Shown piece after piece: positions 485-63,345 of a stretch of DNA of 64,000 nucleotides. Where the stretch lies: NCBI GenBank assembly GCA_009914755.4, contig CP068257.2, positions 44,096,001-44,160,000 on the forward strand. Reading direction: 5' to 3'. A program made the translations under genes and the position numbers. This DNA comes from the human T2T-CHM13v2.0 reference genome, Homo sapiens. A model generated the notes under the pieces. That model made no database searches and had not been told where the DNA came from. It saw nothing but the letters and a program-made list of their open reading frames with translations. Each line of letters starts with the position of its first letter. The stretch's first letter is position 1.

Positions 485-1075
485 TTTCATGTGCTTATTT
501 GCCATCTGTATATTTTCTTTGAAGTACCTGATCAAATATTTTGCTCATTTTAAAAACTGGGTTGTTTATTTTCTTATTGAGCTTTGAGAATTTTTTCTGT
601 ATATATTCTGGATACAGTCTTTTATGGGGTATGTGTTTTGCAAATATTTTCTCTCAGTCTGTAGCCTGACTTTTCATTTTTATAACAGTGACTTGAAGAT
701 GAAAAGTTTTAAAATTTGGTAACCTCCAACATCAGTTTTTTCTTTTGTAGTTCATGCCTTTTGTATCATGCTTAAGAATTCTTTGTTAAATTGAAGGTCT
801 TTAAGATTTTATCTTATTCATTCTTCTATAAGCTTTATAGTTTTGACTATTACATTTAAGTCTATGATCCATTTTGAATTAACTCTATATTGGATGCAAA
901 GAAAATGTCAAGGTTCTTATTTTTCTTGTTTTTAAAAATACAATGTCCAGTTGTTCCAGCACCATTTCTTGAAAAGATTATCTGTTCCTCATTAAGTTGC
1001 CTGGGAAGCTTTGTCAAAATCACTTGTTCATATGTGTGTGTTTTCAGGATATCTGGGATTTGTTTTAATACAGTG
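485..1075 (-). mobile_element. LINE-1 fragment (ORF2 C-terminal / 3' region), antisense
   Basis: The reverse strand reads as L1. The stretch 'ttgccatctgtatat..ctttg..aaatgtct..tt..tcctttgccca', 'ttctggata..agtc..ttatg..tttgcaaatattttctc' and 'ccagcaccatttcttgaaaag' match the well-known antisense L1 ORF2 C-terminal consensus. Confidence 0.7.
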
Positions 1076-1599
1076 TGCTAAGACATGAGACATAGAAATG
1101 ACTGTCATGAAGGAAGAAAGTGTTTGTACCCACAGCTCCCTGGAAGCAGGAGCACGGCTGCCAGGCAGGGCCACATGGGAAGCACCGGGTAGGTCAAGAG
1201 GCAGAGAGAGCAAGGGGACAATGTGGGCAGGGAAAGCCTCACTGTGGTCTCCACAGGAGGAATGGGTGAGGCAGGGGGAGCAGGCTTAGGAGTGGCACTT
1301 TGAATCATTTCAGCAGGCCCTTGGGTGTAGGGTCTGTCCCTAGTTGTCTGGTGCCTGGCCTTGGGTGATTGGGGCAGGTGGGGAGTGGCCCCATGTGAGA
1401 GGAGGTGGTTGGGGTGTGGGCTCTGGATTGGTGGGTTTGTATTTGAAAGGTACACTCCAGGATGGGTTGTTTGCTATTTCTAGGAATTGGCTAACGCTGG
1501 GAGGGCAGTCCCTCCAGGTCAGCAAGCCCTGGATGTCAAAGCATCAGACACAGAAAAGGAAAAACATGGTTAATACTGTGTGCAGACTATTTCTGGACT

Positions 1600-2560
1600 G
1601 TATTCTATTCCATGGGTCAATTTATTTATCTTTATAACTAGCTTTATAATAAATCTTGAAATCGGGCAGTATAAGCCCTCCCATTTTGTTCTCTTTTTCA
1701 AAGTTCTTTGGCTGGTTTATTTCCTCGGTATCTTCATACAAATTCTAGAATTAGATTAGTTCAGCTTTTGGTTGGGGTTGCACTGAATTGATAGATCACT
1801 TGTGGAGGTTGGTATCTTGTTAAAGGAAGTGCTTGGAGGGTACGGTCTAACTTTGTTCCTGAATTTAGGGGTAAACATTCAGTTTTCACCCTTGTGTATA
1901 CTGCTAGCTGTATGTTTCAACTGGAGGTCCTTTATCAGGTTCAGAAAGAGTCCTTAAATTCCCAGGTTGCTGAGGATTTTTATCATGAGTTAATACTGAA
2001 TTTTGTCAAATGTTGTCTCTGTATCTATTGAGATGATCATATGGTGTTTCTTTTTTGTTTATATGGTGAATTACATTGATAGCTTTAAAAAACAATAGTA
2101 AGCCAGTTGCATTTCTGGGTTAAAACCCACTTTATCTGCATGTATTTATTTTATATTGTTGGATTTTTATATGCTAAAATTTAAGAATTTTGGCATCTAT
2201 ATTTCTGAGGAATATTGATGTCTTTTCTTATGTGTATTTTTCTGATTTTTTATCATGTTAATGCTTGCCTTATAGAATGAATTGGGAAGTATTCTCTCAT
2301 CTTCAGTTTTCTAGATGAGTTAGTAAGAAATTGATATTATTTCTTCCTTGTATATTTTATTTTATAGAATTCACCTGCAAAGTCATCTCGGTCAGCACTT
2401 TTCTTTGTGGGAAGGTTTTATCTTGAATGCAGTTTCTTTGGTATGTATATAGGATTATTTAATTCTCCTTAAGTGAGTTTTGATTATTTGATTCTTGTAA
2501 GAACTTGCTCCATCTAAGTTAGCAGATTTACTGACATGCAGTAGTTCATAGCATCCGCTT
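1600..2560 (-). mobile_element. LINE-1 fragment (ORF2 region), antisense; continuation of the element at 485-1075 after a ~520-bp non-L1 interruption
   Basis: 'cttgaaatcgggcagtataagccctcc..ttgttctctttttcaaag..ttggctggtt' matches antisense L1 ('cttgaaatcgggaagtgtga..ctccaactttgttcttctttttcaagattgttttggcta'). Later L1 ORF2 antisense motifs follow ('gatgatcatatggtgtttcttt', 'ttacattgatagctt'). Confidence 0.65.
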
Positions 2561-6892: not shown

Positions 6893-7559
<667 letters not shown>

Positions 7560-12374: not shown

Positions 12375-13560
12375 CTCACCCCTTCCTGTCCATGGCCCCC
12401 TGGGTAGCCCCCCCATCTTCATCAGCCCACCCCTTCCTGTCCATTGTCTTCTGCGTGGCCCCTCCCATCTTCATCAGCCCACCCCTTCTTGTCCATGGTC
12501 CTCTGGGTGGCTCCCCCATCTTCATCAGCCCACCCCTTCCTGTCCACGGTCCTCTGGGTAGCCCCCCCATCTTCATCAGCCCACCCCTTCCTGTCCACGA
12601 TCCTCTGGGTGGCCCCCCCATCTTCATCAGCCCACCCCTTCCTGTCCACGGTCCTCTGGGTAGCCCCCCCATCTTCAGCCCACCCCTTCCTGTCCACGGT
12701 CCTCTGGGTGGCCCCACCATCTTCATCAGCCCACCCCTTCCTGTCCACGGTCCTCTGGGTAGCCCCCCATCTTCATCAGCCCACCCCTTCCTGTCCGCGG
12801 TCCTCTGGGTGGCCCCCCCATCTTCATCAGCCCACCCCTTCCTGTCCATTGTCCTCTGGGTGGCCCTCCCCCATCTTCATCAGCCCACCCCTTCCTGCCC
12901 ATTGTCCTCTGGGTGGCACCCCCCATCTTCATCAGCCCACCCCTTCCTGTCCATGGCCCCCTGGATGGCCCCCCCATCTTCATCAGCCCATCCCTTCCTG
13001 TGCATTGTCCTCTGGGTGGCCCCTCCCATCTTCATCAGCCCACCCCTTCCTGTCCATGGTCCTCTGGGTAGCCCCCCCATCTTCATCAGCCCACCCCTTC
13101 CTGTCCACGGTCCTCTGGGTAGCCCCCCCATCTTCATCAGCCCACCACTTCCTGTTTGTCCATGGCCCCCTGGATGGCCCCCCCATCTTCATCAGCCCAC
13201 CACTTCCTGTTTGTCCATGGCCTCCTGGGTGGCCCCCCGATCTTCAGCCCACCCCTTCCCGTCCATGGTCTTCTGGGTGGCCCCTCCCTTCTTCATCAGC
13301 CCATCCTTCCTGTCCATTGTCCTCTGGGTGCCCCCCCGCCATCTTCATCAGCCCACCCCTTCCTGTCCATTGTCCTCTGGGTGGCCCCTCCCATCTTCAT
13401 CAGCCCACCCCTTCCTGTCCATTGTCCTCTGGGTGGCCCCCCCATCTTCATCAGCCCACCCTTCCTGTCCATTGTGCTCTGGGTGGACCCCCCATCTTCA
13501 TCAGCCCACCCCTTCCTGCCCATGGCCCTCTGGGTGGCCTCCCCATCTTCATCAGCCCAC
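12375..13560. repeat. GC-rich minisatellite/VNTR, 51-52-bp unit x ~23
   Basis: The unit is 'CATCTTCATCAGCCCACCCCTTCCTGTCCA(C/T)GGTCCTCTGGGT(A/G)GCCCCCC'. I measured the period as 52, then 51, from successive 'catcttc' positions (12414, 12466, 12517). Variants include ccacgg/ccatgg/ccattg/ccgcgg and gtagccccccc/gtggcccctccc. A partial copy 'cctcaccccttcctgtccatggccccctgggtagccccccc' starts the array. Confidence 0.95.
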
Positions 13561-14323
13561 AGCACCTGGTGCTGCATTGTAGTCACTGTCACACACACTC
13601 TCTTCGCTTTGCCTCTGTGTCCTCCCAGTGTCCATGTGGTAGAACAAGATCACAGCATTGATGGAGACCACATAGCTGTGCAGACTAGTCTCGTCTAATT
13701 TCACAGCCAAGGGCTTGGATCCACCCTCACTTGCCTAGTCCCAGCAGCACCCCCTTGAAGAATTGCTTTTGCCTGAGTCCATTCTGTTCTGTCTGCTTCC
13801 CCTTCCTCAGATCTCTGATCTAATCAGATGTGAGTCTCAGCTGGCGTCTATGCCTCAGTTAAGGAGAAGAGAGTTGCTTCTCTGCCCCATCCTCCGACCC
13901 AAGGGGCTAAGTCGCGTTTCCTCCCTTGGCCTTTCCTGCCCCTCAAGTGCAAGGAGCCCTCGCTGTTAGCTCAGGACAAGCCCACCCTCTTGTTTCCTCA
14001 GGGACTTGCCCCGCTGTGTGGTCTGTGGTGCCATCTCTCTGCGTGCCCGCCTCACTGGCAGGTCACTTCTGTTAGCATCCGGGATGACTTAGTAGCTCCC
14101 ATGTTAAAATTAAAAAAAATTATTCCCTTGATCCTTGATTTTCAGCCAGATTGGCAAATTGATTTCACAGTGACCTCTGCTTCCTCTTAAAAGCCCACTA
14201 AAATGACAGGCAAGATGTTTTTAAAGGGCAAAAGTCACCAAGAAATTGAGAAAGAAGATGACAGAACTTTGAAAGTTGGAAGGCAAATGGTCAGAGCAGA
14301 TCTGAACCTAGAAAGCTGAGAGG

Positions 14324-14555
14324 TGCGTGTGTGTGTGCATGTGAGTGTGTGTGTGGTGTGTGTAGTGTGTGTGTGTGTGTGTGTGTGAAGTGTGTGTGCA
14401 TGTGTATTTACCCACACAGGTCTGTGTGTACACATGCGTGTGTGTATGTGTGTGCAGGTGAGTGTGTATATAGGTGTGCACGCATGCGTGTGTGTGTGGA
14501 AGGTGTGTGCATGTGTGTGTGGTATGTGTGCATCTGTTATATGTGTGTGTGTTGA
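14324..14555. repeat. Compound (TG)n / GTGTGCATG-type low-complexity tract
   Basis: 'gtgcgtgtgtgtgtgcatgtgagtgtgtgtgtggtgtgtgtagtgtgtgtgtgtgtgtgtgtgaagtgtgtgtgcatgtg...' is purine/pyrimidine alternating. It produces Cys/Val/His-rich pseudo-ORFs on both strands. Confidence 0.95.
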
Positions 14556-17360
14556 GGGGACTGAGAAGTGAGTTTCTTGTGTTGCAGACAGTGCCCCCAC
14601 GTCTTGGGAATGGCGTTACTGTGCAGCTGAACATGGGGAGGCAGTAGAGATACGGTTGACATAGGAAAGCTGTGGAAAGCTTGTCTGAGAAGGAGTCAGC
14701 CTCTCAGCCCTCTCCTACCCAGTCTGGTTCCTCCCTGGAAGGTGACTTGGGAGCCTGCCCTGCGGTGGGGGACTGTCCTAAACGGAAAGCAGGGCACGGG
14801 ATGGCTTCACTCCAGCTCCTCCTTATTTGGCCCCAGAGCACTGGGAACCTAGGAACAGACACAGGAGGGAGGGAAAGGAGCCACTTGGTGGGTGAGGAAG
14901 CTGGACGCTGGGGCCCTGGGGCGTGGCTCCAAGAAGGGCTGGAGGGTGATGTCGGGATGAGTGGGTCTGCAGTGGTCGGCCCCATGGCTAGGAGTTTGGA
15001 AAGAAATCAACCTAAGTTCATAGAACACCAAAGAAAGCAGTGGGGAGGCCCTTATTCACTGTGAGAAGCAGAAACATTGTGCAAGAAGGGAGCTGCAGCA
15101 TCAGGTGTGGGTACCAGGTGCACAGCCAGCGAGGGGAGTCCTGGAAAGTGGGGAGGAGGGCGAGGTAGGGGCTCAGGAGAGTCAGTGCTCATCTTTTATA
15201 GCAGGAAGCTAACAGCTGATACATAAAGTTGTAAGATCAAGAATAGCAATACAAACTCAGTAATTAGAAATATGGAGATAAAGAAATGCCAAAAGAGGCT
15301 AAGAGCTCAGGGAAGGATTGTGATGTAGGGGGCAAGGGAGGGGTAGGGCCACTGCTTTTCATAAGCTTTATCGAATTATTTGCTTTTAAAAACTGTGTAT
15401 ATTTATAGTTTTATTAAAAATAAAAAATTTTAAAGGTTATATGGCAAATATTATTTTATAAAAAATTGATGAACCTCAGGCCCTGAGCTCCCTTGCTTGC
15501 CCTGCTCCTGCCAGGGCAGACTTCCACTGCCCTTGCCCTCTGGTCCTCTCCACTTCAGAGGCCCGGCCTCTGGCTTGGTGAATCTGAGGCAGATCTTTCT
15601 CCTCAGGTTGCTTGAGCTCTGCAGCGTTAGGCCTGGTGAGCGCCTCTTGCCCAGTGCCCTGGGGGCGGTGGGGAAATTCCAGTCCAGACTGTCTGCCTCA
15701 GGCATTCAGTACACACTTTCGTGCCCTGCTTTTTAACTGAATAGTATTCTGCAAAGTGTTCGACCTTACCTAGTTTGAGAACATTATTTTTAGAAGGTTG
15801 CATGGTTTCCCATGTTGTGGATCTAGGTATCATTTATTGGATTATTCCCTTTTTGTTTATTTTTTCTGATTTTCCACTAATATCCATAATACGAGGTAAA
15901 CACCCTTGTGCATAAATCCACAGCAGCTTCCTCTCTTTTGTAGGCAGTGTTCACACCTACAGAATTCCTGGGTCAGAGGACATGGACATTTAAAAGAGGC
16001 ATAATGTGTAATTGCCAGGTTGATCTCAAAAGTGCAAGTTTGTACTTGAACAAGGCTGTACCAGAGTGCCTGTGCTGTTGTATCCTGACACACCAGGTAC
16101 TGCATACGTCTCCATCTCGAAATGCAGAAGCACACTGAACACACATGGCTTAGCTCTTTAACAATAATGTCGTTTTCCCCCATGCTCATAAGCATTCTTG
16201 CATTATTGAAGATACTCTGCTTTTATGTCTGTGGGAGGAATTTTCCCCAGTTGAGTCGTGCACTTTTTCATCTGATCTGTAGCATTTTGGGTAGCTCGCT
16301 CAGTATTTTCCGTTGTGATGTTGTCTCTTATTGTGTTTACATTTAGAAAATCCTTTTCTTGGGATTTAATTAGGTGTATGTTCTTAGGTGAAGATCTAAG
16401 TTATTTTTTCTTATATTAGAAACACCATTTATTCAAAATACTTCATTTTTCTAATGATTCATGCTGCAACTTTTTATGTATGTGTACCACATATGAAAAT
16501 ATTGTGTATTTTAGTGTCTGTTTCTGAATTCTCTAATTGACCTCTTTGTTCTAGTGCTGGTACACTGTTTTAATTATTTTAGTTTCACGATATATTTCCA
16601 TATCTGATAAAGGTAACCAATATTTCAAAAAATATTTTGGTTATTCTTGGCTACCTACTTTCTAAATGAACTTTAGAATGATTTTCAAGTTTAAAAAGTT
16701 AATCATATTGAGGTTTCTTTTCAAATGGATCAGATCTATAATTTAAATTATAAACAGCTGACATTTTAACAATATTTAAATAGTTTCCTATATAGAAAGG
16801 GAATCTGTCTTTCCATTTATTCTGTTATTAGCCTTCAGTTACATTTCATAGCTTTCTTGCTGTAGGTTTTATCTTTCAAATTTTTTTCCAACTAATTTGT
16901 GTTATTTGGTTATTGTAATTGGGATTTTTCCCATTGCATTTATCAAATATTTAACATTATATAGGAAAACTATCAGTTTTTATATATTTGAATGTGGTCA
17001 CATGTTAAAATGGTTTTATTTGCAAAAGGGTTTTCAGGTGAAATTTGACTTATTTTTACCTTGACCCAACATTCACCATGAAGTATGCTCCCTGTAGCTC
17101 TCTGGTATATATTCTTCATTAAGCTACAGAAGTTTTCTTTTATTGCTATTTATTAAGTTACGTGTTTTTTAAAATCAAAAAAGTTGCATTTCACTAAATG
17201 TGTTCATTGCTACTATTTAGGTGGTTGTATGATTCCTGCTTTTGTCTCTCAATGGAGTGAATTCTGTTCCTGACATTCCAAGTGTTGATTCTTGGAATAA
17301 ACCCCGTTAGGCCATAGCTCTTCCAATTATAATATGCTCCCAGTATCTTATTGGGACTAG

Positions 17361-17504
17361 AATAAGGGTTAATAATAGGGTTAGGGCTAGAGTTAAGGCT
17401 AGCATAAGGGTTGGAGTTACCGTTAGTGTTCGAGTTATTGTAAAGGTTAGGATTAGGGTTACTGTTAGGGTTATCGTGAGGGTTATGGCTAGGGTGATAG
17501 TGCT
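17361..17504. repeat. Degenerate telomere-like hexamer array (TTAGGG-derived, ~24 units)
   Basis: There is a 6-bp periodicity with 'GGTT' in nearly every unit and several exact AGGGTT hexamers, a rotation of TTAGGG. Examples are 'aagggtt aataat agggtt agggct agagtt aaggct agcata agggtt ggagtt accgtt agtgtt cgagtt ... aggatt agggtt actgtt agggtt atcgtg agggtt atggct agggtg'. Confidence 0.7.
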
Positions 17505-17865
17505 CTATAAGGTTCTTTTTTTTCTAATTTTTATATGATTTTGGCAATAAATGATAGCTTGCTTTCATAACATGATTTGAGAATTGTCCCATGTTTTTCT
17601 ATCCTTTAAATAACAAATTTTTCTGTCTTCTGTTTAGAAATGCAAATGTTATCAGCCTTCGATAGAATTCTACCTTTAATAGAATTCGTCTATCAAAGCT
17701 GCTAAGCCTGGAGCCTATTTTGGAGACTGATTTTTTAGTGTCTATATAATTTCTACCATGGTTATTGATTTTATACACATTTTCTTATACACCAATGGTT
17801 TTTGCTTAGGAAACAGTCAGTTTTAAGCAAGTTTTTAGGTATATAGGTAAAAATGTGTATATGTT

Positions 17866-17912
17866 TTATATATATATATATACATATGTATGTATATAAC
17901 ATATATATGTTG
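17866..17912. repeat. (TA)n/(TATG) microsatellite
   Basis: 'tatatatatatatatacatatgtatgtatataacatatatatg'. Confidence 0.9.
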
Positions 17913-17972
17913 TGCTCGTCATTTTTCAGTCTTTAAAAATTTTTAACTTAATTTAATTTTTCTTTTTATTAT

Positions 17973-18247
17973 TTTTTTAGAGACAGAGCCACACTCTGTT
18001 GGATGTTGATCCCAGCTCACCGCAGCCTTGAACTCCTGGGCTCAAGCGATCCTTCCACCTCAGTCTCCCACGTAGCTGGGACTACAGGCATGTGCCAACG
18101 CATCCAGCTAATTTTTAAAATTTTTTTAGGCACTGGGGTCTTGCTTAGATGCTCAGGCTAGTCTCAAACTCCTTGGCCTCAAGTGATCTTCCTGCCACGT
18201 CCTCTCAAAGTGCTAGGATTACAGGTGTAGGCCACCATGCCGGGCCT
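17973..18247 (-). mobile_element. Alu (AluJ-like, diverged), antisense
   Basis: 'tttttttagagacagagccacactctgttggatgttgatcccagctcaccgcagccttgaactcctgggctcaagcgatcc' runs to '..ctaggattacaggtgtaggccaccatgccgggcc'. Confidence 0.88.
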
Positions 18248-19640
18248 AGTTTTTCAGTCATTTTATCTGTTACTGTGTTCCCTTTATTTCTAGTACTTAC
18301 TTCAGCATTTTAGTCACATTTGTCTAATTTTTTCTCCAAAATAGCTTTCATTTATATTGATCATTTATAATTTTACTATTAATTTCTCATTTTAGCATAC
18401 ATTATAATTATAATTCTCTTTTTCTTCAAGTTAATGCTATTATTTTAATAGTTTCCTGAGTGCTTCTTTGAACATTTTCATTTATTTTCTGACTAATGCA
18501 TTTGACTCTCAGTCTTCTAAGACACTTTTAACTCTGTTCTACTGGCTTTATATGTACTGACCTGTTGTCCCTCATGTTTTTATTATTTAATTTAAAAGAT
18601 TAATTTCTTGGTAGTCCTGTCTAGGAGGACTATTCTTTTGTTGTTAAGTTTCTACTTTTTAAGTATCATGTTTGCCCTGTGTGGGTCAGAGAGGGACTGG
18701 GCCCTTTGTGACTGTGGGTGTTTTGTAGGAGATGGCTGTGGGGCTTGGGGATGGAAGAGTGGCACCCACTGTAGGCATGTCACAGGCTGTCACGGAGCAG
18801 CAGGGTACAGTGTGAGCAGTGGAGAAGGTGCCCAGAGGGACCCCATGGGGTTGTATGCTGCCTGTGGTCCTGGGAGATGGAGTGATCGCTCTGGAAGAAA
18901 AACATTCTGGAGTTTGTGGGGAGCAGACAGACTTCTGTGTGAGACCCATAGGAGACATGCCATGGAGGCTTTTGGAATCCTGGCTCACAGCTGAGGGGAC
19001 GGTGTGGGGCATACAGAGAGCCACGTGCCAAGAGGAAGAGTTGAACCCAGGGGAAAGGGTAAGCTGTGGAAATACAGAGCTTCCCAGACCCACCAGCTTT
19101 ATTTAATAAGGTCAGATGCTCTCGTTGACATCAGCGTTCCTGGATGGGAGGGCTGGGCTCTGTGAGGCCCTCCCCGGCCTGGACTCTGGGTGGCCTGCCA
19201 TTCTCGATGTGTGGTTTCTGTCTCTTGCTATGTTGTCATGACTGCAGAGTTGGAAGGAACCCAGGTGCACCTCGTGTGTTCTAGCCTGTGGATGCAACAG
19301 GGGACAACTTCATTTTAAGAACTGGAGGCCCAAGTTATGCTGACGTGTATCATGGTATCTGAGACCAGGTGTGTCTAACATGTGCCAGGTGACCCTCTCT
19401 GCAGAGGAGCTGGGCAATGCATTCTCCCGCTGGGCAGCCTTGGGCTCAGCCAAAGCTCTGTCTTCACGGAGAAAGGGAGGAAGGGACAGGGGAAGAGCTT
19501 CTGCCTCCATAGGCGAGGATGAGGACATAGGAGGCACTGAATAGTGGCCAGGAGAGGAGTGAGTGAGGACCTGGGGGTCACCCACACTTCAGAGTGAGGC
19601 GCACTTGCAAGAGTGTTGGCATCGTGTGAAGGCAGACAGT

Positions 19641-20915
19641 GCCACACGGTGTTGTGTCAGCATCGCTGTGTCAGTCCATTGACGTAGCGCCACACGGTGT
19701 TGTGTCAGCATCGCTGTGTCAGTCCATTGACGTAGCGCACACGGTGTTGTGTCAGCATCGCTGTCAGTCCATTGACGTAGCGCACACGGTGTTGTGTCAG
19801 CATCGCCGTGTCAGTCCACTGACGTAGCGCACACGGTGTTGTCAGCATCGCTGTGTCAGTCCATTGACGTAGCGCACACGGTGTTGTGTCAGCATCGCTG
19901 TCAGTCCATTGACGTAGCGCCACACGGTGTTGTCAGCATCACTGTGTCAGTCCATTGACGTAGCGCACACGGTGTTGTCAGCATCGCCGTGTCAGTCCAT
20001 TGACGTAGCGCACACGGTGTTGTCAGCATCGCCGTGTCAGTCCATTGACGTAGCGCACACGGTGTTGTCAGCATCGCCGTGTCAGTCCATTGACGTAGCG
20101 CACACGGTGTTGTCAGCATCGCCGTGTCAGTCCATTGACGTAGCGCACACGGTGTTGTCAGCATCGCCGTGTCAGTCCATTGACGTAGCGCACACGGTGT
20201 TGTCAGCATCGCCGTGTCAGTCCATTGACGTAGCGCACACGGTGGTGTCAGCATCGCCGTGTCAGTCCATTGACGTAGCGCACACGGTGGTGTCAGCATC
20301 GCCGTGTCAGTCCATTGACGTAGCGCACACGGTGGTGTCAGCATCGCCGTGTCAGTCCATTGACGTAGCGCACACGGTGGTGTCAGCATCGCCGTGTCAG
20401 TCCATTGACGTAGCGCACACGGTGGTGTCAGCATCGCCGTGTCAGTCCATTGACGTAGCGCACACGGTGGTGTCAGCATCGCCGTGTCAGTCCATTGACG
20501 TAGCGCCACATGGTGGTGTCAGCATCGCCGTGTCAGTCCACTGACGTAGCGCACACGGTGTGGTGTCAGCATCGCCGTGTCAGTCCACTGACGTAGCGCA
20601 CACGGTGTTGTGTCAGCATCGCCGTGTCAGTCCACTGACGTAGCGCACACGGTGTTGTGTCAGCATCGCCGTGTCAGTCCACTGACGTAGCTCACACGGT
20701 GTTGTGTCAGCATCGCCGTGTCAGTCCACTGACGTAGCTCACACGGTGTTGTGTCAGCATCGCCGTGTCAGTCCATTGACGTAGCTCACACGGTGTTGTG
20801 TCAGCATCGCCGTGTCAGTCCATTGACGTAGCGCCACACGGTGTTGTCAGCATCGCTGTGTCAGTCCATTGACGTAGCGCACACGGTGTTGTCAGCATCG
20901 CTGTGTCAGTCCATT
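19641..20915. repeat. CpG-rich minisatellite/VNTR, 45-bp unit (43-48-bp variants) x ~28
   Basis: The unit is 'TCCATTGACGTAGCGCACACGGTGTTGTCAGCATCGCCGTGTCAG'. Each 60-bp sequence line shifts the pattern by 15, giving a period of 45. There are 4-5 CpG per unit, and the motif TGACGTAG sits in every unit. Variants are distributed in blocks: GTGTTGT about 19930-20220; GTGGTGT about 20220-20520; the 47-bp GTGTTGTGT plus CCACTGACG variant about 20520-20800; TpG-decayed units at both ends. Confidence 0.96.
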
Positions 20916-45339: not shown

Positions 45340-45870
45340 TTTGAGCATTTTCAGAGCATCATTTTGTCTAAAATTAATCAGTATATTTCACCGTCTTAAC
45401 AAACTAAAAACGAAAAACAGTATCATTTTAGAATATGCAGTGAGATCATTTGACAAAATGCAACACTCCTTTCAGATACAAACGTTCAAGAAACTGACAA
45501 TAGAAGGAATCTTCCTCAGATGCATGGTATTTATGAAAAATCTAGAGCTAACCTCGTATTTGATGGCGCAAGACTGAATACTTTCCCCTAAGATGAGGAG
45601 TAAGGCAAGGAAACCTGCTCTCATCTCTTCTATTCAGTATTTTACTGGAGGTTCTAGCAAGTTCAATAGTCAAGAAAGAGGCATTGGAATTGAAAAAGAA
45701 GAAGTAAAACTGTCTTTCCTCTCAGTCAGCATGTTTGACCCTATAGTACCTACTGCAGAATCAAAACAAAGCTCCTGAACTAATGAGTAAGTTTATCAAG
45801 GCTGCAGGATGTAAGATCAGCATACAAAAATCAATTGTATATCTGTATACCAGCAACAAATAATTAAATA
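45340..45870 (+). mobile_element. Old LINE-1 (L1M-type) ORF2 (RT region) fragment, sense; left half of an element split by the nested L1 at 45880-53495
   Basis: Translation gives '..NKLKTKNSIILEYAVRSFDKMQHSFQIQTFKKLTIEGIFL..' and '..KPALISSIQYFTGGSSKFNSQERGIGIEKEEVKLSFLSVSMF'. This parallels L1 ORF2p '[33 protein letters not shown]...[45 protein letters not shown]'. The same element resumes at 53500. Confidence 0.8.
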
Positions 45871-47420
45871 TTAAAGTAAATTATTAGTTTTTTGTTAACC
45901 TATTTATTTAATTATACAAATTTATGGGACACGTGAAATTTTGTTACATGTGTATAATGTGTAGTGATCAAGTCAGGATATTTAAGGTGTCCATCACCTG
46001 AATACAATATAGTTTTGTTAAATACATTCACCCTACTCTGATATTATTGGGTTTATTCCATCTATCTTACTGAAGGTTTGTAATCCACTTCCTTTCCTCT
46101 TCATCCTCTCCCCTAACCCCCATTCACCCTTCCTAGTCTCTAGTATTTATCTTTCCATTGTGTACCTCCATGTGATCAAATTTTTTAGCTTCTACATATA
46201 GGTGAGAACATAAGATATTTGTCTTTTTGTGCCTGGCTTATTTCACTTAAGGTAATGACTTTGAGTTCCATCCTTGTTGCTGCAACTGACATGGTTTTAT
46301 TCTTTTTTAAGGCTGCATAGTATTCCTTTGTGTATATATACTACATCTTCTCTATCCATTCACCCTTTGATCAATACTTAGGTTGATTCCATATCTTATT
46401 ATTGTGAATAGTACTGCAATAAACATAGGAGTGCAGGTACTACTTTGATATACTGATTTTATTTCCTTTGGGTAGATACCCAGTAGTGGGATTGCTTGAT
46501 TTAATGGTAATTTTATTTTTAGTTTTTTTGAAAAATCTCTGTACTGTTTTCCATAGTGGCTGTACTCGTTTACATTCCCACCAATGATATATAAGTATTT
46601 TCTTTTTCCTGCATCCTCACCAACACCTGTTATTTTTTTATTATGGCCATTCTATTTTTAATAACAGCCATTCTGAATGGTTCAAGATGACATCTCATTG
46701 TGGTTTTGATTTGCGTTTCTCTGGTGATTAATTATGTTGAACATTTTTTTCACATACTTCTTGGCTGTTTGTGTGTCTTCTTTTAAGAAATGTCTATTAA
46801 GGTCCTTTGTTCACTTTTTAGTGGGACTATTTGTTTTTTTCCCTTTTGATTGAGTTCCCTTTATATTCTGGATGTTAGTCCTCTGTCAGAAGAATAATTT
46901 GCAAATATTTTCTCCCTATTCAACAGGTTGTCTTTTCACTCTGCTGATTGTTTTCTTTGCTGTGCAGAAGCTTTTTAATTTAATATAGTTCCATTTGTCT
47001 ATTTTTGTTTTTGTTGCCTATGCTTTTGCGGTCTTAGTCATAAATTCTTTGCCTAGACCAATGTCCGGGAGAGTTTTCCCTAGGTTTTCTTCTAGTATTT
47101 TTATAGTTCCATGTCTTACATTTAAGTATTTTTATAGTTTCAGGTCTTACAGTTAAGTATTTTTATAGTTTCAGGTCTTACATTTTAAGTATTTAATCCA
47201 TTTTGAATTGATTTTTGTGTATGGTGAGAGATAAGGTCGAATTTTATTCTTCTGCATGTGGCTATCCAATTTTTTCCACCACCGTTTATTGAAGAGGGTG
47301 TCCTTTTCCCCCAGTGTAAGTTCTTGTCAGCTTTGTTGAAGATTATGTTGAACATTTTTTCACATACTTCTTGGCTGTTTGTGTGTCTTCTTTTAAGAAA
47401 TGTCTATTCATGTCCTTTGT

Positions 47421-47738
47421 TCACTTTTTAATGGGACTATTAAACCAGAAGCTTTGTGGTTTTATTTCTGGGTTCTCTATTCTGCTCCAGTGATCTCTGT
47501 GTCTATTTTTATATAAGTGCCATACTGTTCTGGTTACTGTACCCTTGTTATATATTTTGAAGTCAGATAATGTAATGCCTCCAGCTTTGTTCTTTTTGCT
47601 CAGGATTGCTTTAGCTATTTGTGCCCTTTTTTGGTTCCATATGGATTTTAGAATTTTTTTTTCTAATTCTGTGAATGAGGTTGGTATTTTGATAGGGCTT
47701 GCATTGAATCTGTAGATTGCTTTGGGCAATATGGTCAT
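47421..47738 (-). pseudogene. L1 ORF2p C-terminal remnant (inside nested L1)
   Basis: The 105-aa ORF '[95 protein letters not shown]' parallels the L1 ORF2p segment '[97 protein letters not shown]'. Stop codons truncate it on both sides. Confidence 0.85.
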
Positions 47739-48024
47739 TTTAATGATATTAATTCTTCGTATCCACGAACATGGGATGCTTTTCCATTTGTGTCATCTTC
47801 AATTTCTTTCATCAGCACTTTGTAGTTTTCCTTATAGAAATCTTTCCTTTCCTTGGTTAAATTTATTCCTAGGTATTTTGTGTAGCTGTTGTAAATGTGA
47901 TTGTCTTCTTGATTTCTTTCTTGACTAGATCACTATTGGTGTGTGGAAATGCTGCTGATTTTGTATGTTGATTTTGTATCCTGCAACTTACTGAATTCAT
48001 TTATCACATCTAAAAGTTTTATGG

Positions 48025-48314
48025 GGCCGGGCGTGGTGGCTCACACCTGTAATCCTAGCACTTTGGGAAGCTGAAGTGGGCAGATCACAAGGTCAAGAGA
48101 TTGAGATCATCCTGGCCAACATGGTGAAACTCCATATCTACTAAAAAAAAATGCAAAAATTAGCTGGGCGTGGTGGTGCGTGCCTGTAATCCCAGCTACT
48201 CGGGAGGCTGAGGCAGGAGAGTCCCTTGAACCTGTGAACCGAGATTGCGCCACTGCACTCCAGCCTGGCGACAGAGCAAGACTCCATCTCAAAAAAAAAA
48301 AAAAGAAAAAAAAG
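48025..48314 (+). mobile_element. Alu (AluS/Y-like), sense, inserted into the nested L1
   Basis: 'ggccgggcgtggtggctcacacctgtaatcctagcactttgggaagctgaagtgggcagatcacaaggtcaagagattgagatcatcctggccaacatggtgaaactccatatctactaaaaaaaaatgcaaaaattagctgggcgtggtggtgcgtgcctgtaatcccagctactcgggaggctgaggcaggagagtcccttgaacctgtgaaccgagattgcgccactgcactccagcctggcgacagagcaagactccatctc' plus an A-rich tail. Confidence 0.95.
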
Positions 48315-49324
48315 TCTTTTTGGTGGAGACTTTAGTTTTTTCTGGATAAAATTATATCATCAGCAAAGAAGGACAATTTGACTTCCTCTTTTTCAACTTG
48401 GTTTCCTTTTATTTATTTCTCTTTCCTGGCTGCTCTGGCTAGGACTTCCAGTATTATGTTGAATAGGAGTGGTGAAAGTACGTATCTTTATCTTCTTCTA
48501 ATTCTTAGAGAGAACACTCTTAGCTTTTCTCTAGTATTATGTTGGTTGTGGCTTTGTCATATATGGCTTCATTATTTTGAGGTATGTTACCACTATGCTT
48601 AGTTTGTTGAGAGTTTTTATCATGAGGAGATGTTGAATTTTATCAAATGCATTTTTGCATTTATTGAGATGGCCATATGGTTTTTATCACTCACTCTGTT
48701 ATGTGATATATCATGTTTATTGATTTCTGTATGTTAAACCATACTTGTATTCCTGGTATAAATCTCACTTGATTATGGTGTATTATTTTTCTGATGTGCT
48801 GTTGGATTTGGTTTGCTAACATTTTGTTGAGCATTATTGTGTCTGTGTTCATCAGGGATATTGGCCTGTAGTTTTATTTTGTTGTATTCTTGTCTGGTTT
48901 TGGTGTCAGGGTAATGCTGCCCTTGTAGAATGAATTAGGAAGATTTCCCTTCTCTTTGATATTTTGGAGTAGTTTCTGGAGGATTAGTATTAGTTTTTCT
49001 TTGTACTTTTGGTAGAATTCTGCTGTGAATTCACCTGGACCTGGACTTTTCTGTATTGGGAGGCTTTTACTACTGATTCAGTCTCACTATTCCTTATTAG
49101 TCTGTTCAGGATTTTTATTTCCTCCTGACTCAGTCTTGGCAGGTTGTATACTTCCAGGAGTTTATCCATTTCTTCCAGGTTTTCTAGTTTGTGAGTATAT
49201 AGCTTTTTTTTTTTATAATAGTCTCTGATGATCTTTTGTATTTCTGTGGTATCAGTTTAATTAATGCCTCCTTATTCATTTCTGATTTTGTTTTCTTTGG
49301 TTCTTCTCTCTTCTTTTTTATTTA

Positions 49325-49620
49325 AAAAAATTTTTAGAAACAGGGTCTCACTCTGTTACCCAGGCTGGAGTGCAGTGGCATGATCACAGCTCACTGCAGC
49401 CTCAAACCCCTGGGTCAAGCAGTCCACCAGCCTCAGCTTCCCAAGTAGCTAGGACTACAGATGGGTACCACCACTCCTGGCTAACTTTTTAAATTTTTCT
49501 TTAGAGATAAGGTCTTGCTATGTTGCCCAGACTGGTCTTGAACTCCTGGCCTTAAGCAGTCTTCCCACACTGCAGCTCTCAAAGTGCTGGGATTATAGGC
49601 ATGAACCACTGTGCCCAGCC
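49325..49620 (-). mobile_element. Alu (AluJ-like), antisense, inserted into the nested L1
   Basis: 'tttttagaaacagggtctcactctgttacccaggctggagtgcagtggcatgatcacagctcactgcagcctcaaacccctgggtcaagcagtcc' runs to '..gggattataggcatgaaccactgtgcccagcc'. Confidence 0.9.
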
Positions 49621-50513
49621 TTCTTCTTTTCTTGGTTAGTCTAGCTAGTGGTTTATCAATTTTGTTTATCTTTTTGAAAAGCCAAGTTTTTGTTTCATTC
49701 ATCCTTTGTATTATTTTTCTGGTCTGTATGCCATTTAGTTCTCCTCTGATTTTTATTATTTCTTCTCTTCTGCTAATTTGGGGTTCAGTTTGTTTTTGCA
49801 CTTCCAGTTCCTTGAGATGCATTATTAGACTGTTAATTTGTAAGCTGTCTGCTTTTTTCAGGTAGGCATTTATTGCTATAAAATTCCCTCTTAGCTCTGC
49901 TTTTGCTGTATCACACAGGTTTTCGTATGTTGTGTTATTTTCATTTGTTTCAAGGATTTTTTTTATTTTCATTTTTTCTTTATTGACCCAGGAACATACT
50001 GAATTTCCATCTATTTGTGTAGTTTCCAAAGTTCCTGTTGGTATTGATTTCTGGTTTTATTCTGTTGTGGTCTAAGAAGATAGTTGATATATGATTTTTA
50101 AAAATTTTTTGAGACTTGTTTTGTAGTCTGTCCTGGAGAATGTTCCTTTCATGTGCTGATGAAAATGAATATTCTGAAGTTGTTGGGTAGAGTGTTCTGT
50201 AAATGTCTGTTAGGTCTATTTGGTCTGAAGTCCAATTTAAATCTAATGTTTCTTTGTTGATTTTCTCTCTAGAGTGAAAATCACTCTCTGAGAGTGGGGT
50301 GTTGAAGTCCCCCACTGTTTTTGTACTTGAGTCTCTCTCTCTCCCACTGTTTTTGTACTTGAGTCTCTCTTTCTCTCTCTCTCTCTCTCTCTGTCTGTCT
50401 CCCTCTTTAGATCTAGTAATGTTTGCTTTATGAATCTTGATGCTCTGGTGTTGGGTATATATATATATATTTAGAATTGTTATATCCTCTTCCTGGATTG
50501 ATCCATTTATCAT
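49481..50513 (-). pseudogene. L1 ORF2p N-terminal (endonuclease domain and following region) remnant, frame-shifted
   Basis: Two overlapping ORFs in different frames, 49481-50029 and 49980-50513, together parallel L1 ORF2p 'KGSIQQEELTILNIYAPNTGAPRFIKQVL..GDFNTPLSTLDRSTRQKVNKDTQELNSALHQADLIDIYRTLHPKSTEYTFFSAPHHTYSKIDHIVGSK...[118 protein letters not shown]'. A frameshift lies near 50000. Confidence 0.88.
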
Positions 50514-53499: not shown

Positions 53500-54060
53500 T
53501 GAAAAAAATATTATTTTTAATAACATTAGAAATCTAAGTTGGACAAGAGATGTTCAACACTTGAACACGTAAAACTACAAAATATTGCCAACAGAAATTG
53601 TTGAAGATAAATACATTGAGAGATATACCATGTTCGTTGTTAAGATGACTCAATATTGTTAAGATGTTAATTCTCCCCATGTTGATCTATAGAATCAATG
53701 AACTCCCAATCAAAGTCCCAGAAGGCTTTTCATAGACATTTGACTATAACAGTACTTGGTTTTATGACTTATTATAGGCTGCAATAGTCAATGCAGTGTG
53801 GTATTGCTGTTAAGATAGACAAGTAGATCAGTGGATCAGAATAGAAAGTCTGGAAATAGGCCTGCACAAACGTGGCCAATTAATTTTCAACAACAGCGCC
53901 CAGGCAAATTAGTGGGAAAAGGCATAGCTTTTTAAACAAATGGTCCTGGAATAATTGTATATCCATGTGAAAAAAAAATCCTATACTTTTTGTCATTTAT
54001 AAAAATTACAGTAGATCAGGAATTTCAATCTCTAAAACTCAAAAATATATAATTTCTTGG
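53500..54060 (+). mobile_element. Old LINE-1 (L1M) ORF2 C-terminal region, sense; continuation of 45340-45870 after the nested L1
   Basis: Translation gives '..LNKWSWNNCISM.KKNPILFVIYKNYSRSGISISKTQKYIISWRK', which parallels L1 ORF2p '[49 protein letters not shown]'. Confidence 0.8.
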
Positions 54061-58232: not shown

Positions 58233-60013
58233 GCTCTACCTCTACCTCTACCTCTACCTCTACCTCTACCTCTACCTCTACCTCTACCGCTACCGCTACC
58301 CCTACCTCCTACCTCCTACCTCCTACCTCCTACCTCCTACCTCCTACCTCCTACCTCTACCCTCTTTCCACTGTCTCCCTCTGATGCCGAGCCGAAGCTG
58401 GACTGTACTGCTGCCATCTCGGCTCACTGCAACCTCCCTGCCTGATTCTCCTGCCTCAGCCTGCCGAGTGCCTGCAATTGCAGGCGCGCGCCGCCACGCC
58501 TGACTGGTTTTCGTATTTTTTGGGTGGAGACGGGGTTTCGCTGTGTTGGCCAGGCTGGTCTCCAGCTCCTGACCGCGAGTGATCCGCCAGCCTCGGCCTC
58601 CCGAGGTGCCGGGATTGCAGACGGAGTCTCCTTCACTCAGTGCTCAATGGTGCCCGGGCTGGAGTGCAGTGGCATGATCTCGGCTCGCTACAGCATCCAC
58701 CTCCCAGCAGCCTGCCTTGGCCTCCCAAAGTGCCGAGATTGCAGCCTCTGCCCGGCCGCCACCCCGTCTGGGAAGTGATGAGTGTCTCTGCCTGGCCGCC
58801 CATCGTCTGGGATGTGAGGAGCCCCTCTGCCTGGCTGCCCAGTCTGGAAAGTGAGGAGCGTCTCTGCCCGGCCGCCATCCCATCTAGGAAGTGAGGAGCG
58901 TCTCTGCCCGGCCGCCCATCATCTGAGATGTGGGGAGCGCCTCTGCCCTGTCGCCCCGTCCGGGATGTGAGGAGCATCTCTGCCCGGCCGCCCCGTCTGA
59001 AAAGTGAGGAGACCCTCTGCCTGGCAACCGCCCTGTCTGAGAAGTGAGGATCCCCTCCGCCCAGCAGCCACCCCGTCTGAGAAGTGAGGAGCCCCTCCGC
59101 CCGGCAGCCACCCCGTCTGGGAAGTGAGGAGCATCTCCGCCCGGCAGCCACCCCGTCCAGGAGGGAGATGTGGGGGTCAGCCCCCCGCCCGGCCAGCCGC
59201 CCCGTCCGGGAGGGAGGTGGGGGGGTCAGCCCCCCGCCCGGCCAGCCGCCCCATCCGGGAGGTGAGGGGCGCCTCTGCCCGGCCACCCCTACTGGGAAGT
59301 GAGGAGCCCCTCTGCCCGGCCAGCCGCCCCGTCTGGGAGGAGGTGGGGGGGTCAGCCCCCCGCCTGGCCAGCCGCCCCGTCCGGGAGGGAGGGGGGGTCA
59401 GCCCCCCGCCCGGCCAGCCGCCCCATCCGGGAGGTGAGGGGCGCCTCTGCCCGGCCGCCCCTACTGGGAAGTGAGGAGCCCCTCTGCCCGGCCACCACCC
59501 CGTCTGGGAGGTGTACCCAACAGCTCATTGAGAATGGGCCATGATGACAGTGGTGGTTTTGTGGAATAGAAAAGGGGGAAAGGTGGGGAAAAGATTGAGA
59601 AATCGGATGGTTGCCGTGTCTGTGTAGAAAGAGGTAGACATGGGAGACTTTTCATTTTGTTCTGTACTAAGAAAAATTCTTCTGCCTTGGGATCCTGTTG
59701 ATCTGTGACCTTACCCCCAACCCTGTGCTCTCTGAAACATGTGCTGTGTCCACTCAGGGTTAAATGGATTAAGGGCGGTGCAAGATGTGCTTTGTTAAAC
59801 AGACGCTTGAAGGCAGCATGCTCGTTAAGAGTCATCACCACTCCCTAATCTCAAGTACCCAGGGACACAAACACTGCGGAAGGCCGCAGGGTCCTCTGCC
59901 TAGGAAAACCAGAGACCTTTGTTCACTTGTTTATCTGCTGACCTTCCCTCCACTATTGTCCTGTGACCCTGCCAAATCCCCCTCTGCGAGAAACACCCAA
60001 GAATGATCAATAA

Positions 60014-60045
<32 letters not shown>

Positions 60046-63045: not shown

Positions 63046-63345
63046 AGTGAATGTGTGTGCACACGTGCGTGTGCATGTGTGTGTCTGCACATGCAAATGT
63101 GCATGCATGTTTGTGCATACATAGTGTGTGCACGTGTGTGTGTGATTGCATGTATGTGTGTGATTGTGCACGTAGTGTACCCGCATGTGTGCGAGGGTGA
63201 GTGTGTGCATGTGAGTTCATGTGTGCATGAGTGGGTGCATGTGTACATGTGCTTGTGTGCCTATGAGTGCACGAGTGTGTGCATGTGTTTGTGATCGTGT
63301 CTTTTCATGTGTGTATGTGTACACGTGTGCATACATACATGCAGT
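63046..63345. repeat. Imperfect (TG)n/(GTGCATG)-type low-complexity tract (~300 bp)
   Basis: 'gtgtgtgcacacgtgcgtgtgcatgtgtgtgtctgcacatgcaaatgtgcatgcatgtttgtgcatacatagtgtgtgcacgtgtgtgtgtgattgcatgtatgtgtgtgattgtgcacg...' yields Cys/Val/His/Thr-rich pseudo-ORFs on both strands. Confidence 0.9.

What the first reader, a model, noticed from the sequence alone, without database searches (positions are those of the whole stretch)
17361..17504. Degenerate interstitial telomere-like (TTAGGG)n tract
About 24 consecutive hexamers follow the pattern nnGGTT or nGGGTT. Several are exact AGGGTT units, which are TTAGGG read in another phase, for example '..agggtt agggct agagtt aaggct .. aggatt agggtt actgtt agggtt atcgtg agggtt ..'. 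The six-base register is maintained for about 145 bp despite heavy substitution. This is how old interstitial telomeric sequences and subtelomeric TTAGGG-like islands look. The tract lies between two large GC-rich minisatellites, which is consistent with a subtelomeric location. It could alternatively be a relic of telomerase-mediated break repair or an ancient fusion or insertion. Interstitial telomeric sequences are known fragile and recombinogenic sites.
Basis: partly seen in the sequence, partly recalled or inferred. Interest (0 to 1): 0.5.

Follow-up and report, generated by a model that had tools for sequence, protein, structure and literature searches.

The report
Decayed telomere-like repeat inside old L1
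The telomere-like tract is real, but it is a short, heavily mutated TTAGGG array sitting inside a dead ancient LINE-1 element, most likely an old scar of telomerase-assisted break repair, which is an ordinary and already described kind of genomic relic.

Summary
From 17365 to 17502, 23 hexamers keep one register. Lag-6 autocorrelation gives z=6.5, and no other stretch of the 64 kb comes close.

The tract lies inside an AT-rich, very old, minus-strand L1 ORF2 (reverse transcriptase) remnant, with L1 homology on both sides. About 142 nt of one-orientation AACCCT-like repeat replace about 41 nt of L1, a net gain of about 101 nt. Human ORF2p and three other L1 copies in the window have nothing at that site.

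The array also has a 12-bp superperiod (p=0.005), so it grew partly by slippage after units had mutated.

Best reading (about 0.6): an ancient short interstitial telomeric sequence inserted at a break within an L1, then decayed to 1.48 mismatches per unit. Main rival (about 0.27): a hexamer/dodecamer minisatellite born in place from L1's own AACCCT-like seeds.

Local anatomy does not support a fusion relic or a subtelomeric island. Chromosomal position could not be tested. There are only two TRF half-sites, no fold and no TERC fragment, so no function is expected. Interest is low.

The parts
17365..17502 (+). Degenerate telomere-like array. It has 23 hexamers in one register, with the G-strand (AGGGTT = TTAGGG) on the + strand and AACCCT on the L1 sense (minus) strand. 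Six units are exact.
Evidence: Lag-6 autocorrelation z is 6.5. Per-position mismatches for A G G G T T are 2 9 11 3 4 5.
17354..17495 (.). Block that is better explained by cyclic AACCCT than by L1 in a three-state alignment (L1 / repeat / L1). It is 142 nt long and replaces about 41 nt of L1 (28 nt at J = -4), a net gain of about 101 nt.
   Evidence: The block stays essentially single under all four switching penalties tried. At the most permissive one (J = -3) only a 5-nt L1 segment (17376-17372) appears inside it.
17455..17502 (+). Sub-array of four 12-mers: AGGGTT-ACTGTT / AGGGTT-ATCGTG / AGGGTT-ATGGCT / AGGGTG-ATAGTG. This is evidence for dimer-level slippage duplication. The last copy overlaps sequence that also aligns to L1 (…CCAATATCCC…).
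   Evidence: TRF finds period 12 (17453-17495, 80% matches) and period 24 (17455-17502, 79%). The repeat finder gives spacings 12,12,12,18,24,12,12,12. Even-lag unit identity exceeds odd-lag identity at p=0.005.
17496..17613 (-). L1 ORF2 remnant upstream of the tract in L1 sense. It corresponds to human ORF2p residues about 495-534 (…LPNSFYEASI.LIPKP…KKENFRPIS).
   Evidence: tblastn with the PDB ORF2p sequence gives q16-55 at 17613-17491. The nhmmer L1 DNA profile hits 17607-17494 with E 0.017.
16358..17353 (-). L1 ORF2 remnant downstream of the tract in L1 sense. It corresponds to ORF2p about 565-962 (GFIPGMQGWFN… to …WCW…), with an internal deletion and many stops and frameshifts.
   Evidence: Collinear tblastn chain of 133 bits against shuffled-query mean 55, sd 14.5, max 91, with 0 of 200 reaching it. 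nhmmer hits 17311-17085 with E 3.5e-5.
12377..13560 (.). Context only: 51-bp minisatellite, 23 copies, GC 0.64, CpG o/e 0.13.
19643..20915 (.). Context only: 45-bp minisatellite, 27.8 copies, 96% matches, GC 0.58, CpG o/e 1.18.

Best explanation
The tract is an ancient short interstitial telomeric sequence (ITS).

Proposed history:
1. A double-strand break occurred inside an already inserted, inactive L1 element, in the part of ORF2 that encodes …[18 protein letters not shown]…
2. The break was healed by adding a head-to-tail run of TTAGGG repeats, by the telomerase-mediated route described for primate and rodent ITSs. A few tens of L1 bases were lost at the break.
3. The array then decayed neutrally to about 25% divergence.
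4. Along the way it was partly remodelled by slippage that duplicated already-mutated two-unit (12-bp) blocks.

Today it is an inert relic with no expected function.

Shown: the periodic telomere-like array, its single orientation, its position inside an L1 ORF2 remnant, the net gain of about 101 nt, its absence from other L1 copies, and the 12-bp superstructure.

Inferred: telomerase as the source, one-step insertion, and great age.
For: (1) The consensus of the 23 units is exactly AGGGTT at every position, and 6 units are perfect. The match to (TTAGGG)n is about 13 sd above shuffles.

(2) The array is one continuous block in one orientation, embedded in L1 ORF2. L1 homology on both flanks is supported by a collinear protein chain (z 5.4, 0 of 200 shuffles) and by a DNA profile built from three other L1 copies in the window (E 3.5e-5 and 0.017).

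(3) Relative to L1, the block replaces about 41 nt (28 nt at the J=-4 setting) and adds a net of about 101 nt. With permissive switching penalties no L1-derived middle segment is recovered inside it, apart from a 5-nt blip at J=-3.

(4) Human ORF2p (PDB 8c8j/8uw3) has nothing inserted at this site. Neither do the L1 copies at 49017 and 33096, and the copy at 2352 has only small indels. The array is therefore a property of this locus, not of L1.

(5) Literature. ITSs appear in one step in pre-existing sequence, often with deletion of flanking bases. Sixteen ITSs shared by human and chimpanzee lie inside repetitive elements. Older ITSs carry more mismatches. ITS arrays show VNTR-type length change (PMC2246262; PMC7215372).

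(6) From my own knowledge, long hexanucleotide arrays of other motifs are rare in hominoid DNA. That raises the prior that a run of about 20 TTAGGG units came from telomerase.
Against: No orthologous empty site could be examined, so one-step insertion is not shown.

Divergence is 1.48 mismatches per unit. That is five times the 0.29 of 'old' catalogued ITSs and above the catalogue cut-off of fewer than 1 per unit. The array is therefore either very old or was never a pure array.

The 12-bp superperiod (p=0.005) shows that not all units descend independently from a pure hexamer array.

L1 itself carries two AACCCT-like hexamers at this site, ATCCCT and AATCCT, 24 nt apart and in the same hexamer phase. 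These could have seeded growth in place.

Mismatches are unevenly placed within the unit (chi-square p=0.048). There is no register-breaking indel despite 34 substitutions.

The junctions are too decayed to score microhomology.
Confidence: 0.6

Rival explanations
1. A hexamer/dodecamer minisatellite born in place. L1's own sequence at this site (…ATATCCCTGATGAACATAGATGCAAAAATCCTCAAC…) supplied AACCCT-like seeds. A point change and replication slippage then produced and expanded a 6/12-bp array. On this view the resemblance to the telomere repeat is a by-product of the seed, and telomerase played no part.
For: There is a significant 12-bp superperiod, with three local groups of near-identical 12-mers sharing derived variants: TAGAATAAGGGT/TAATAATAGGGT, TAGGGCTAGAGT/TAAGGCTAGCAT, and four copies of TAGGGTTAynGT.

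The rightmost 12-mer overlaps sequence that aligns to L1 …CCAATATCCC…. An exact AATCCT unit is present at 17449-17454.

L1 has ATCCCT and AATCCT 24 nt apart in the same hexamer phase.

The lack of register-breaking indels fits an array kept in phase by unit-wise slippage.
Against: The array consensus is AACCCT. It is not ATCCCT or AATCCT, and it is not the intervening L1 hexamers GATGAA/CATAGA/TGCAAA.

No L1-derived segment is recovered inside the block when switching is cheap, apart from a 5-nt blip at the most permissive penalty, so the 28-41 L1 bases look lost rather than spread apart.

The literature contrasts ITS birth (one step) with classical microsatellite birth (PMC2246262).

From my own knowledge, de novo hexamer arrays of about 20 units are rare.
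Confidence: 0.27
2. A subtelomeric-type degenerate TTAGGG island, or the relic of an ancient telomere-telomere fusion or chromosome end.
For: The units are degenerate. The neighbourhood is rich in GC-rich minisatellites, which from general knowledge are commoner towards chromosome ends. Chromosomal position could not be checked.
Against: The array has a single orientation, is only about 140 bp long, and has no second telomere-like stretch anywhere in 64 kb.

The same L1 ORF2 continues on both sides in the same orientation and order. The tract therefore does not separate two sequence blocks, as a fusion point or duplicon boundary would.

Subtelomeric ITSs are described as blocks lying immediately next to the true telomere and mixed with other repeats (PMC7215372).
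Confidence: 0.05
3. The array is an inherited feature of one L1 subfamily, present in the master element. It would then be found at the same ORF2 position in many paralogous copies.
For: The subfamily of this very old L1 could not be determined here, and no copies of the same subfamily were available for comparison.
Against: The site lies in the reverse-transcriptase fingers region, which is continuous in human ORF2p and in three other L1 copies in the window, both old and younger.

A replacement of this size, about 47 codons in place of about 14 and out of frame (net +101 nt), would be expected to destroy the enzyme. That last step is inference.
Confidence: 0.03
4. A chance low-complexity stretch, or a coding (Asn-X)n repeat on the minus strand.
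For: The minus-strand frame AAC-CCT stays open for about 108 codons and reads N-P/N-X.
Against: The periodicity and the telomere match far exceed every shuffle. The open frame is a trivial result of the repeat. It is bounded by stops within L1 debris and has no start codon, since ORF listing finds no ORF there. There is no Pfam or PDB match.
Confidence: 0.01

Closest known systems
Short interstitial telomeric sequences (short ITSs) inserted at double-strand breaks, including those lying inside repetitive elements (Nergadze et al. 2007, PMC2246262; Santagostino et al. 2020, PMC7215372)
   Same: It is a head-to-tail TTAGGG-like run of a few tens of units in one orientation, lying inside pre-existing unrelated sequence, here an L1. 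Host bases are apparently lost at the site. Mismatches increase with age. There is evidence of later unit-number change.
   Different: It is much more decayed: 1.48 mismatches per unit, against 0.29 for 'old' ITSs and the catalogue limit of fewer than 1. It carries a 12-bp higher-order pattern. One-step insertion is not shown because no empty orthologous site was available.
Subtelomeric ITSs, which are degenerate TTAGGG-like blocks next to telomeres (PMC6410037; PMC7215372)
   Same: It consists of degenerate units in tandem orientation, and the surrounding region is rich in minisatellites.
   Different: It is short and solitary, and it lies within a single L1 rather than among subtelomeric repeat blocks. 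Its position relative to the telomere is unknown.
Fusion ITS at human 2q13 (PMC6410037; PMC7215372)
   Same: It consists of degenerate telomeric hexamers at an internal site.
   Different: There is no head-to-head arrangement. The same element flanks both sides.
Classical microsatellites and minisatellites born inside transposable elements by mutation plus slippage
   Same: It has a 12-bp superperiod, locally copied variant dimers, a register kept by unit-wise changes, and AACCCT-like seeds in the host L1.
   Different: The consensus is exactly the telomere hexamer rather than the host seed sequence. The host bases between the seeds are not recognisable inside the array.

Membership tests
Short ITS (as catalogued by Nergadze 2007 and Santagostino 2020) | At least four TTAGGG units in tandem | tested here: met
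   There are 23 units in register, 6 of them exact. The longest near-perfect run is 2 units, ATAGGGTTAGGG.
Short ITS (as catalogued by Nergadze 2007 and Santagostino 2020) | Fewer than one mismatch per unit | tested here: not met
   The tract has 34 mismatches in 23 units, or 1.48 per unit. The criterion is quoted. The locus would fail the catalogue filter. This is a threshold on preservation, not on origin.
Short ITS (as catalogued by Nergadze 2007 and Santagostino 2020) | Inserted in one step into pre-existing, unrelated sequence, shown by an empty orthologous locus or by the consensus of the host repeat | tested here: inconclusive
   Using L1 ORF2 as the host reference, the block replaces about 41 nt and adds a net of about 101 nt, and it is absent from other L1 copies. 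One step versus gradual growth cannot be told apart without orthologs.
Short ITS (as catalogued by Nergadze 2007 and Santagostino 2020) | Internal (non-terminal) chromosomal position | not testable with these tools
   No hominoid reference genome is available here. Exact 24-mer scans of the metagenome and GTDB collections found nothing.
TERC-ITS (telomeric repeats flanked by retrotranscribed telomerase RNA) | A fragment of TERC adjoining the repeats | tested here: not met
   An Rfam scan of 16000-19000 at E<=1 found no telomerase RNA match. The only hits were an Alu/SRP match and weak mir-297 matches in a TA-rich stretch. The flanks align to L1.
Subtelomeric ITS | Lies immediately next to the true telomere, mixed with other subtelomeric repeats | not testable with these tools
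   The position is unknown. Locally the tract is solitary and inside an L1.
Fusion ITS | Head-to-head (inverted) telomeric arrays | tested here: not met
   All units have the G-strand on the + strand. A both-strand scan finds no CCCTAA-oriented array nearby.
LINE-1 (host element) | Collinear homology to ORF2 reverse transcriptase | tested here: met
   The collinear tblastn chain scores 133 bits against shuffled queries of 55±14.5, with 0 of 200 reaching it. nhmmer gives E 3.5e-5 and 0.017 on the two flanks. The raw translation alone gave no Pfam or PDB hit.

The most novel reading that the evidence does not exclude
The tract could be a telomerase healing scar older than the eutherian radiation whose decay is position-specific. 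The 5' and middle G of each GGG are changed in 9 and 11 of 23 units, to T, A and C. The 3' G and the TTA positions are nearly intact, with 2 to 5 changes each. That pattern would be a germline record of the known tendency of oxidative damage to localise at the 5' side of G-runs (PMC12795821 abstract), preserved in a neutral telomere-like array that never lost its hexamer register.
Probability: 0.08. Interest if true: 0.35.

Novelty: new member of a known kind. Interest (0 to 1): 0.12.

Why it matters
It matters little. If the main reading is right, this is one more example, unusually old and decayed, of telomeric repeats used to patch a chromosome break. It lies below the preservation threshold of published ITS catalogues.

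Its practical value is as a caution in two ways. Degenerate telomere-like tracts near minisatellites need not mark chromosome ends or fusions. And the host transposon can serve as the 'empty site' reference when orthologs are unavailable.

A tract this decayed, with two intact TRF half-sites, is unlikely to bind shelterin or to behave as a fragile site.

Tried and rejected
- Raw minus-strand translation across the region against PDB sequences and Pfam gave no meaningful hit. The L1 remnant is too broken for that route. L1 identity was instead established with a collinear-chain test and a DNA profile. A first chain test with default tblastn word size was too insensitive (z 1.3) and was replaced.
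- blastn (word 7) of 16000-18000 against the rest of the window found only simple-repeat and poly-T matches, not other L1 copies.
- Exact 24-mer TTAGGGTTACTGTTAGGGTTATCG was absent from JGI metagenome contigs and from GTDB genome contigs. No orthologous or contaminant copy could be fetched.
- I looked for ORFs across the tract that a gene caller might have recorded in other species, to reach orthologs through the protein collections. None has a start codon, so I ran no further search on this.
- I looked for exons or genes to place the window on a chromosome. ORFs of 110 aa or more are repeat-derived or have no recognisable features, so the location remains undetermined.
- TERC fragment next to the repeats: none.
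- Hairpin or other single-strand structure on either strand: none, z about 0.
- Retention of L1 sequence in the middle of the tract: not recovered even with cheap state switching, apart from a 5-nt blip at J=-3.
- Coding (Asn-X)n repeat: rejected.

Full report
**1.
Written as AGGGTT units, 23 consecutive hexamers from 17365 to 17502 keep one register, and six are exact. The 144 bp match an ungapped (TTAGGG)n template at 105 positions (73%). In 2000 dinucleotide-preserving shuffles the mean is 55.0, sd 3.7 and maximum 69. In a both-strand scan of the whole 64-kb window (mean 45.6, sd 4.4), every top-scoring frame overlaps this tract.

Autocorrelation is 0.551 at lag 6 against 0.292±0.040 (z 6.5). 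It is higher still at lag 12 (0.621, z 8.2). No shuffle reaches the observed value at lags 6, 12, 18, 24 or 30.

The two flanking GC-rich minisatellites exist: 12377-13560, a 51-bp unit x23, and 19643-20915, a 45-bp unit x28.

**2. Fine structure.**
There are 34 mismatches in 23 units, which is 1.48 per unit or 24.6% per site. The majority base at every position gives exactly AGGGTT. The mismatches are unevenly placed. For A G G G T T the counts are 2, 9, 11, 3, 4 and 5 (chi-square p=0.048), so the pattern reads A-n-n-G-T-T.

The array is not a simple star-like decay of hexamers. Units two or four apart are more alike than units one, three or five apart (p=0.005 when unit order is permuted). 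TRF reports periods of 12, 18 and 24. An independent repeat finder returns spacings of 12,12,12,18,24,12,12,12.

Three local groups of 12-mers share derived variants, most clearly 17455-17502 (AGGGTT-AYNGTK x4). Part of the array therefore grew by slippage of already-mutated dimers. This also explains some of the positional unevenness.

No register-breaking indel has occurred. CpG is not depleted in the tract (3 observed, 3.5 expected), unlike the flanks (11 observed, 42 expected), but the numbers are too small to interpret.

**3. Context: the tract lies inside a very old L1.**
The 2 kb around it are 31-32% GC. On the minus strand the translation recalls L1 ORF2. To test this I took the human ORF2p sequence as printed from PDB entries 8c8j and 8uw3 (residues 480-982) and searched the window with it.

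Several other L1 fragments were found. At the focal site there is a collinear, same-strand series of weak matches:
- ORF2p about 499-534 at 17602-17495
- ORF2p about 565-595 at 17304-17218
- ORF2p about 797-824 at 16821-16735
- ORF2p about 870-937 at 16616-16419
- ORF2p about 939-962 at 16429-16358

The chain score is 133 bits. For 200 shuffled queries the mean is 55, sd 14.5 and maximum 91 (z 5.4). The reversed query gives 36.

Independently, I built a DNA profile from three other L1 copies in the window (49017-48532, 2352-1885 and 33096-32770). It hits the minus strand at 17607-17494 (E 0.017) and at 17311-17085 (E 3.5e-5), that is, on both sides of the tract. An Alu (Rfam SRP-like match at 17978-18108) and a (TA)n run interrupt the same L1 further right.

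**4. Relation of the tract to L1.**
The tract falls in the ORF2 stretch …[29 protein letters not shown]…GFIP. Human ORF2p is continuous there. The L1 copies at 49017 and 33096 have no insertion there, and the copy at 2352 has only small indels. The array is therefore specific to this locus and is not an L1 feature.

A three-state alignment (L1, cyclic AACCCT, L1) assigns 17495-17354 (142 nt) to the repeat. L1 stops at …CCAATATC and resumes at CAAACCAAATCC…, so 41 L1 bases are skipped and the net gain is about 101 nt.

When switching between states is made cheap, the tract remains essentially one block. L1 resumes at reference position 134 rather than 148 when J=-4, and a 5-nt L1 segment appears inside the block at J=-3. 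No meaningful L1-derived middle segment reappears.

The edges are blurred. L1's own …ATATCCCT… looks like a telomeric unit, so the outermost one or two 'units' on the right are probably L1 sequence.

**5. Most likely origin and mechanism (confidence about 0.6).**
A break inside a dead L1 was healed by adding a one-orientation run of TTAGGG repeats, with loss of a few tens of host bases. This is the mechanism documented for primate and rodent short ITSs. Those ITSs appear in one step in pre-existing sequence, deletion of flanks is the commonest mode, 16 ITSs shared by human and chimpanzee lie inside repetitive elements, and mismatches accumulate with age (PMC2246262). ITS arrays also show VNTR-type length change (PMC7215372), which would account for the copied 12-mers.

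At 1.48 mismatches per unit the tract is five times more decayed than 'old' catalogued ITSs (0.29). It lies outside the catalogue limit of fewer than 1 per unit. Taken at face value, the Jukes-Cantor distance of about 0.30 implies an age of the order of 10^8 years. That is compatible with the barely recognisable host L1. The age is my inference and copied units confound it.

Telomerase involvement and one-step insertion are inferred, not shown.

**6. Rival explanations.**
- (a) Birth in place from L1's own seeds (about 0.27). L1 has ATCCCT and AATCCT 24 nt apart in one hexamer phase. The 12-bp superstructure and the perfect register fit slippage. Against this, the consensus is the telomere hexamer and not the seeds or the intervening L1 hexamers, and the L1 bases between the seeds are not recognisable within the array.
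- (b) Subtelomeric island or fusion relic (about 0.05). The array has one orientation, is about 140 bp long, is solitary in 64 kb, and has the same L1 on both sides. Position was not testable.
- (c) A feature of an L1 subfamily (about 0.03). Other copies argue against it, and the size and frame of the change (net +101 nt in the RT fingers region) make it unlikely.
- (d) Chance or a coding repeat (about 0.01). Excluded by the statistics and by the lack of any ORF.

**7. Function.**
None is expected. Only two YTAGGGTTR half-sites survive, at 17453 and 17465. The whole window holds three, against 2.45 expected by chance. Reported TRF1/TRF2 occupancy of ITSs depends on conservation and length (PMC6410037). 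Neither strand folds better than shuffles. No TERC fragment or other Rfam family adjoins the tract.

**8. What could not be done.**
No hominoid reference or other mammalian genomes were available. Distance to the chromosome end, presence in other primates and the L1 subfamily are therefore untested. Exact-match scans of the metagenome and prokaryote genome collections found nothing.

**9. Verdict.**
The tract is a decayed telomere-like array, most likely an old ITS inside an L1. The subtelomeric and fusion framing finds no local support. It is a new, very degenerate member of a known kind, and interest is low.

Noticed in passing
window 19643-20915: A 45-bp minisatellite with 27.8 copies and 96% matches. 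It carries 125 CpGs (CpG o/e 1.18, GC 0.58), so it is a very homogeneous, CpG-island-like VNTR. The 51-bp minisatellite at 12377-13560 is a contrast, with CpG o/e 0.13.
   Followed up: partly
window 58234-60043 (+): An SVA-like composite element. It has CTCTAC/CTCCTAC hexamers, a GC-rich 37-49-bp VNTR at 58745-59513, and a tail reading …AAGAATGATCAATAAAAAAATAAATAAAT. I recognised it as SVA from memory. If correct, the window is from a hominoid.
   Followed up: partly
window 17365-17502: Within the tract, the 5' and middle G of GGG are changed in 9 and 11 of 23 units, while the 3' G is changed in 3. There is no register-breaking indel despite 34 substitutions. The unevenness is marginal (p=0.048) and is partly due to copied 12-mers. 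A link to preferential oxidation at the 5' side of G-runs (PMC12795821) is speculative.
   Followed up: partly
window 821-2352, 29914-33096, 47078-50513 (all minus); 45371-45860 and 53543-53976 (+): These are other L1 ORF2 fragments of various ages. The copy at 47078-50513 is the best preserved (about 50% amino-acid identity to human ORF2p), has open reading frames at 49481-50029 and 49980-50513, and contains an Alu.
   Followed up: partly
window 6974-7559: TRF reports a 314-bp 'tandem repeat' with 1.9 copies and 83% matches. By its consensus it is two adjacent Alu-type elements, not a minisatellite.
   Followed up: no
window 14323-14553 and 63098-63312: These are long, impure (GT)n / GTGTGCAT-type arrays.
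   Followed up: no
window 17853-17910: A (TA)n / TATG-rich palindromic stretch gives weak mir-297-like Rfam matches on both strands (25.6 bits against a gathering score of 90). This is a low-complexity artefact.
   Followed up: no
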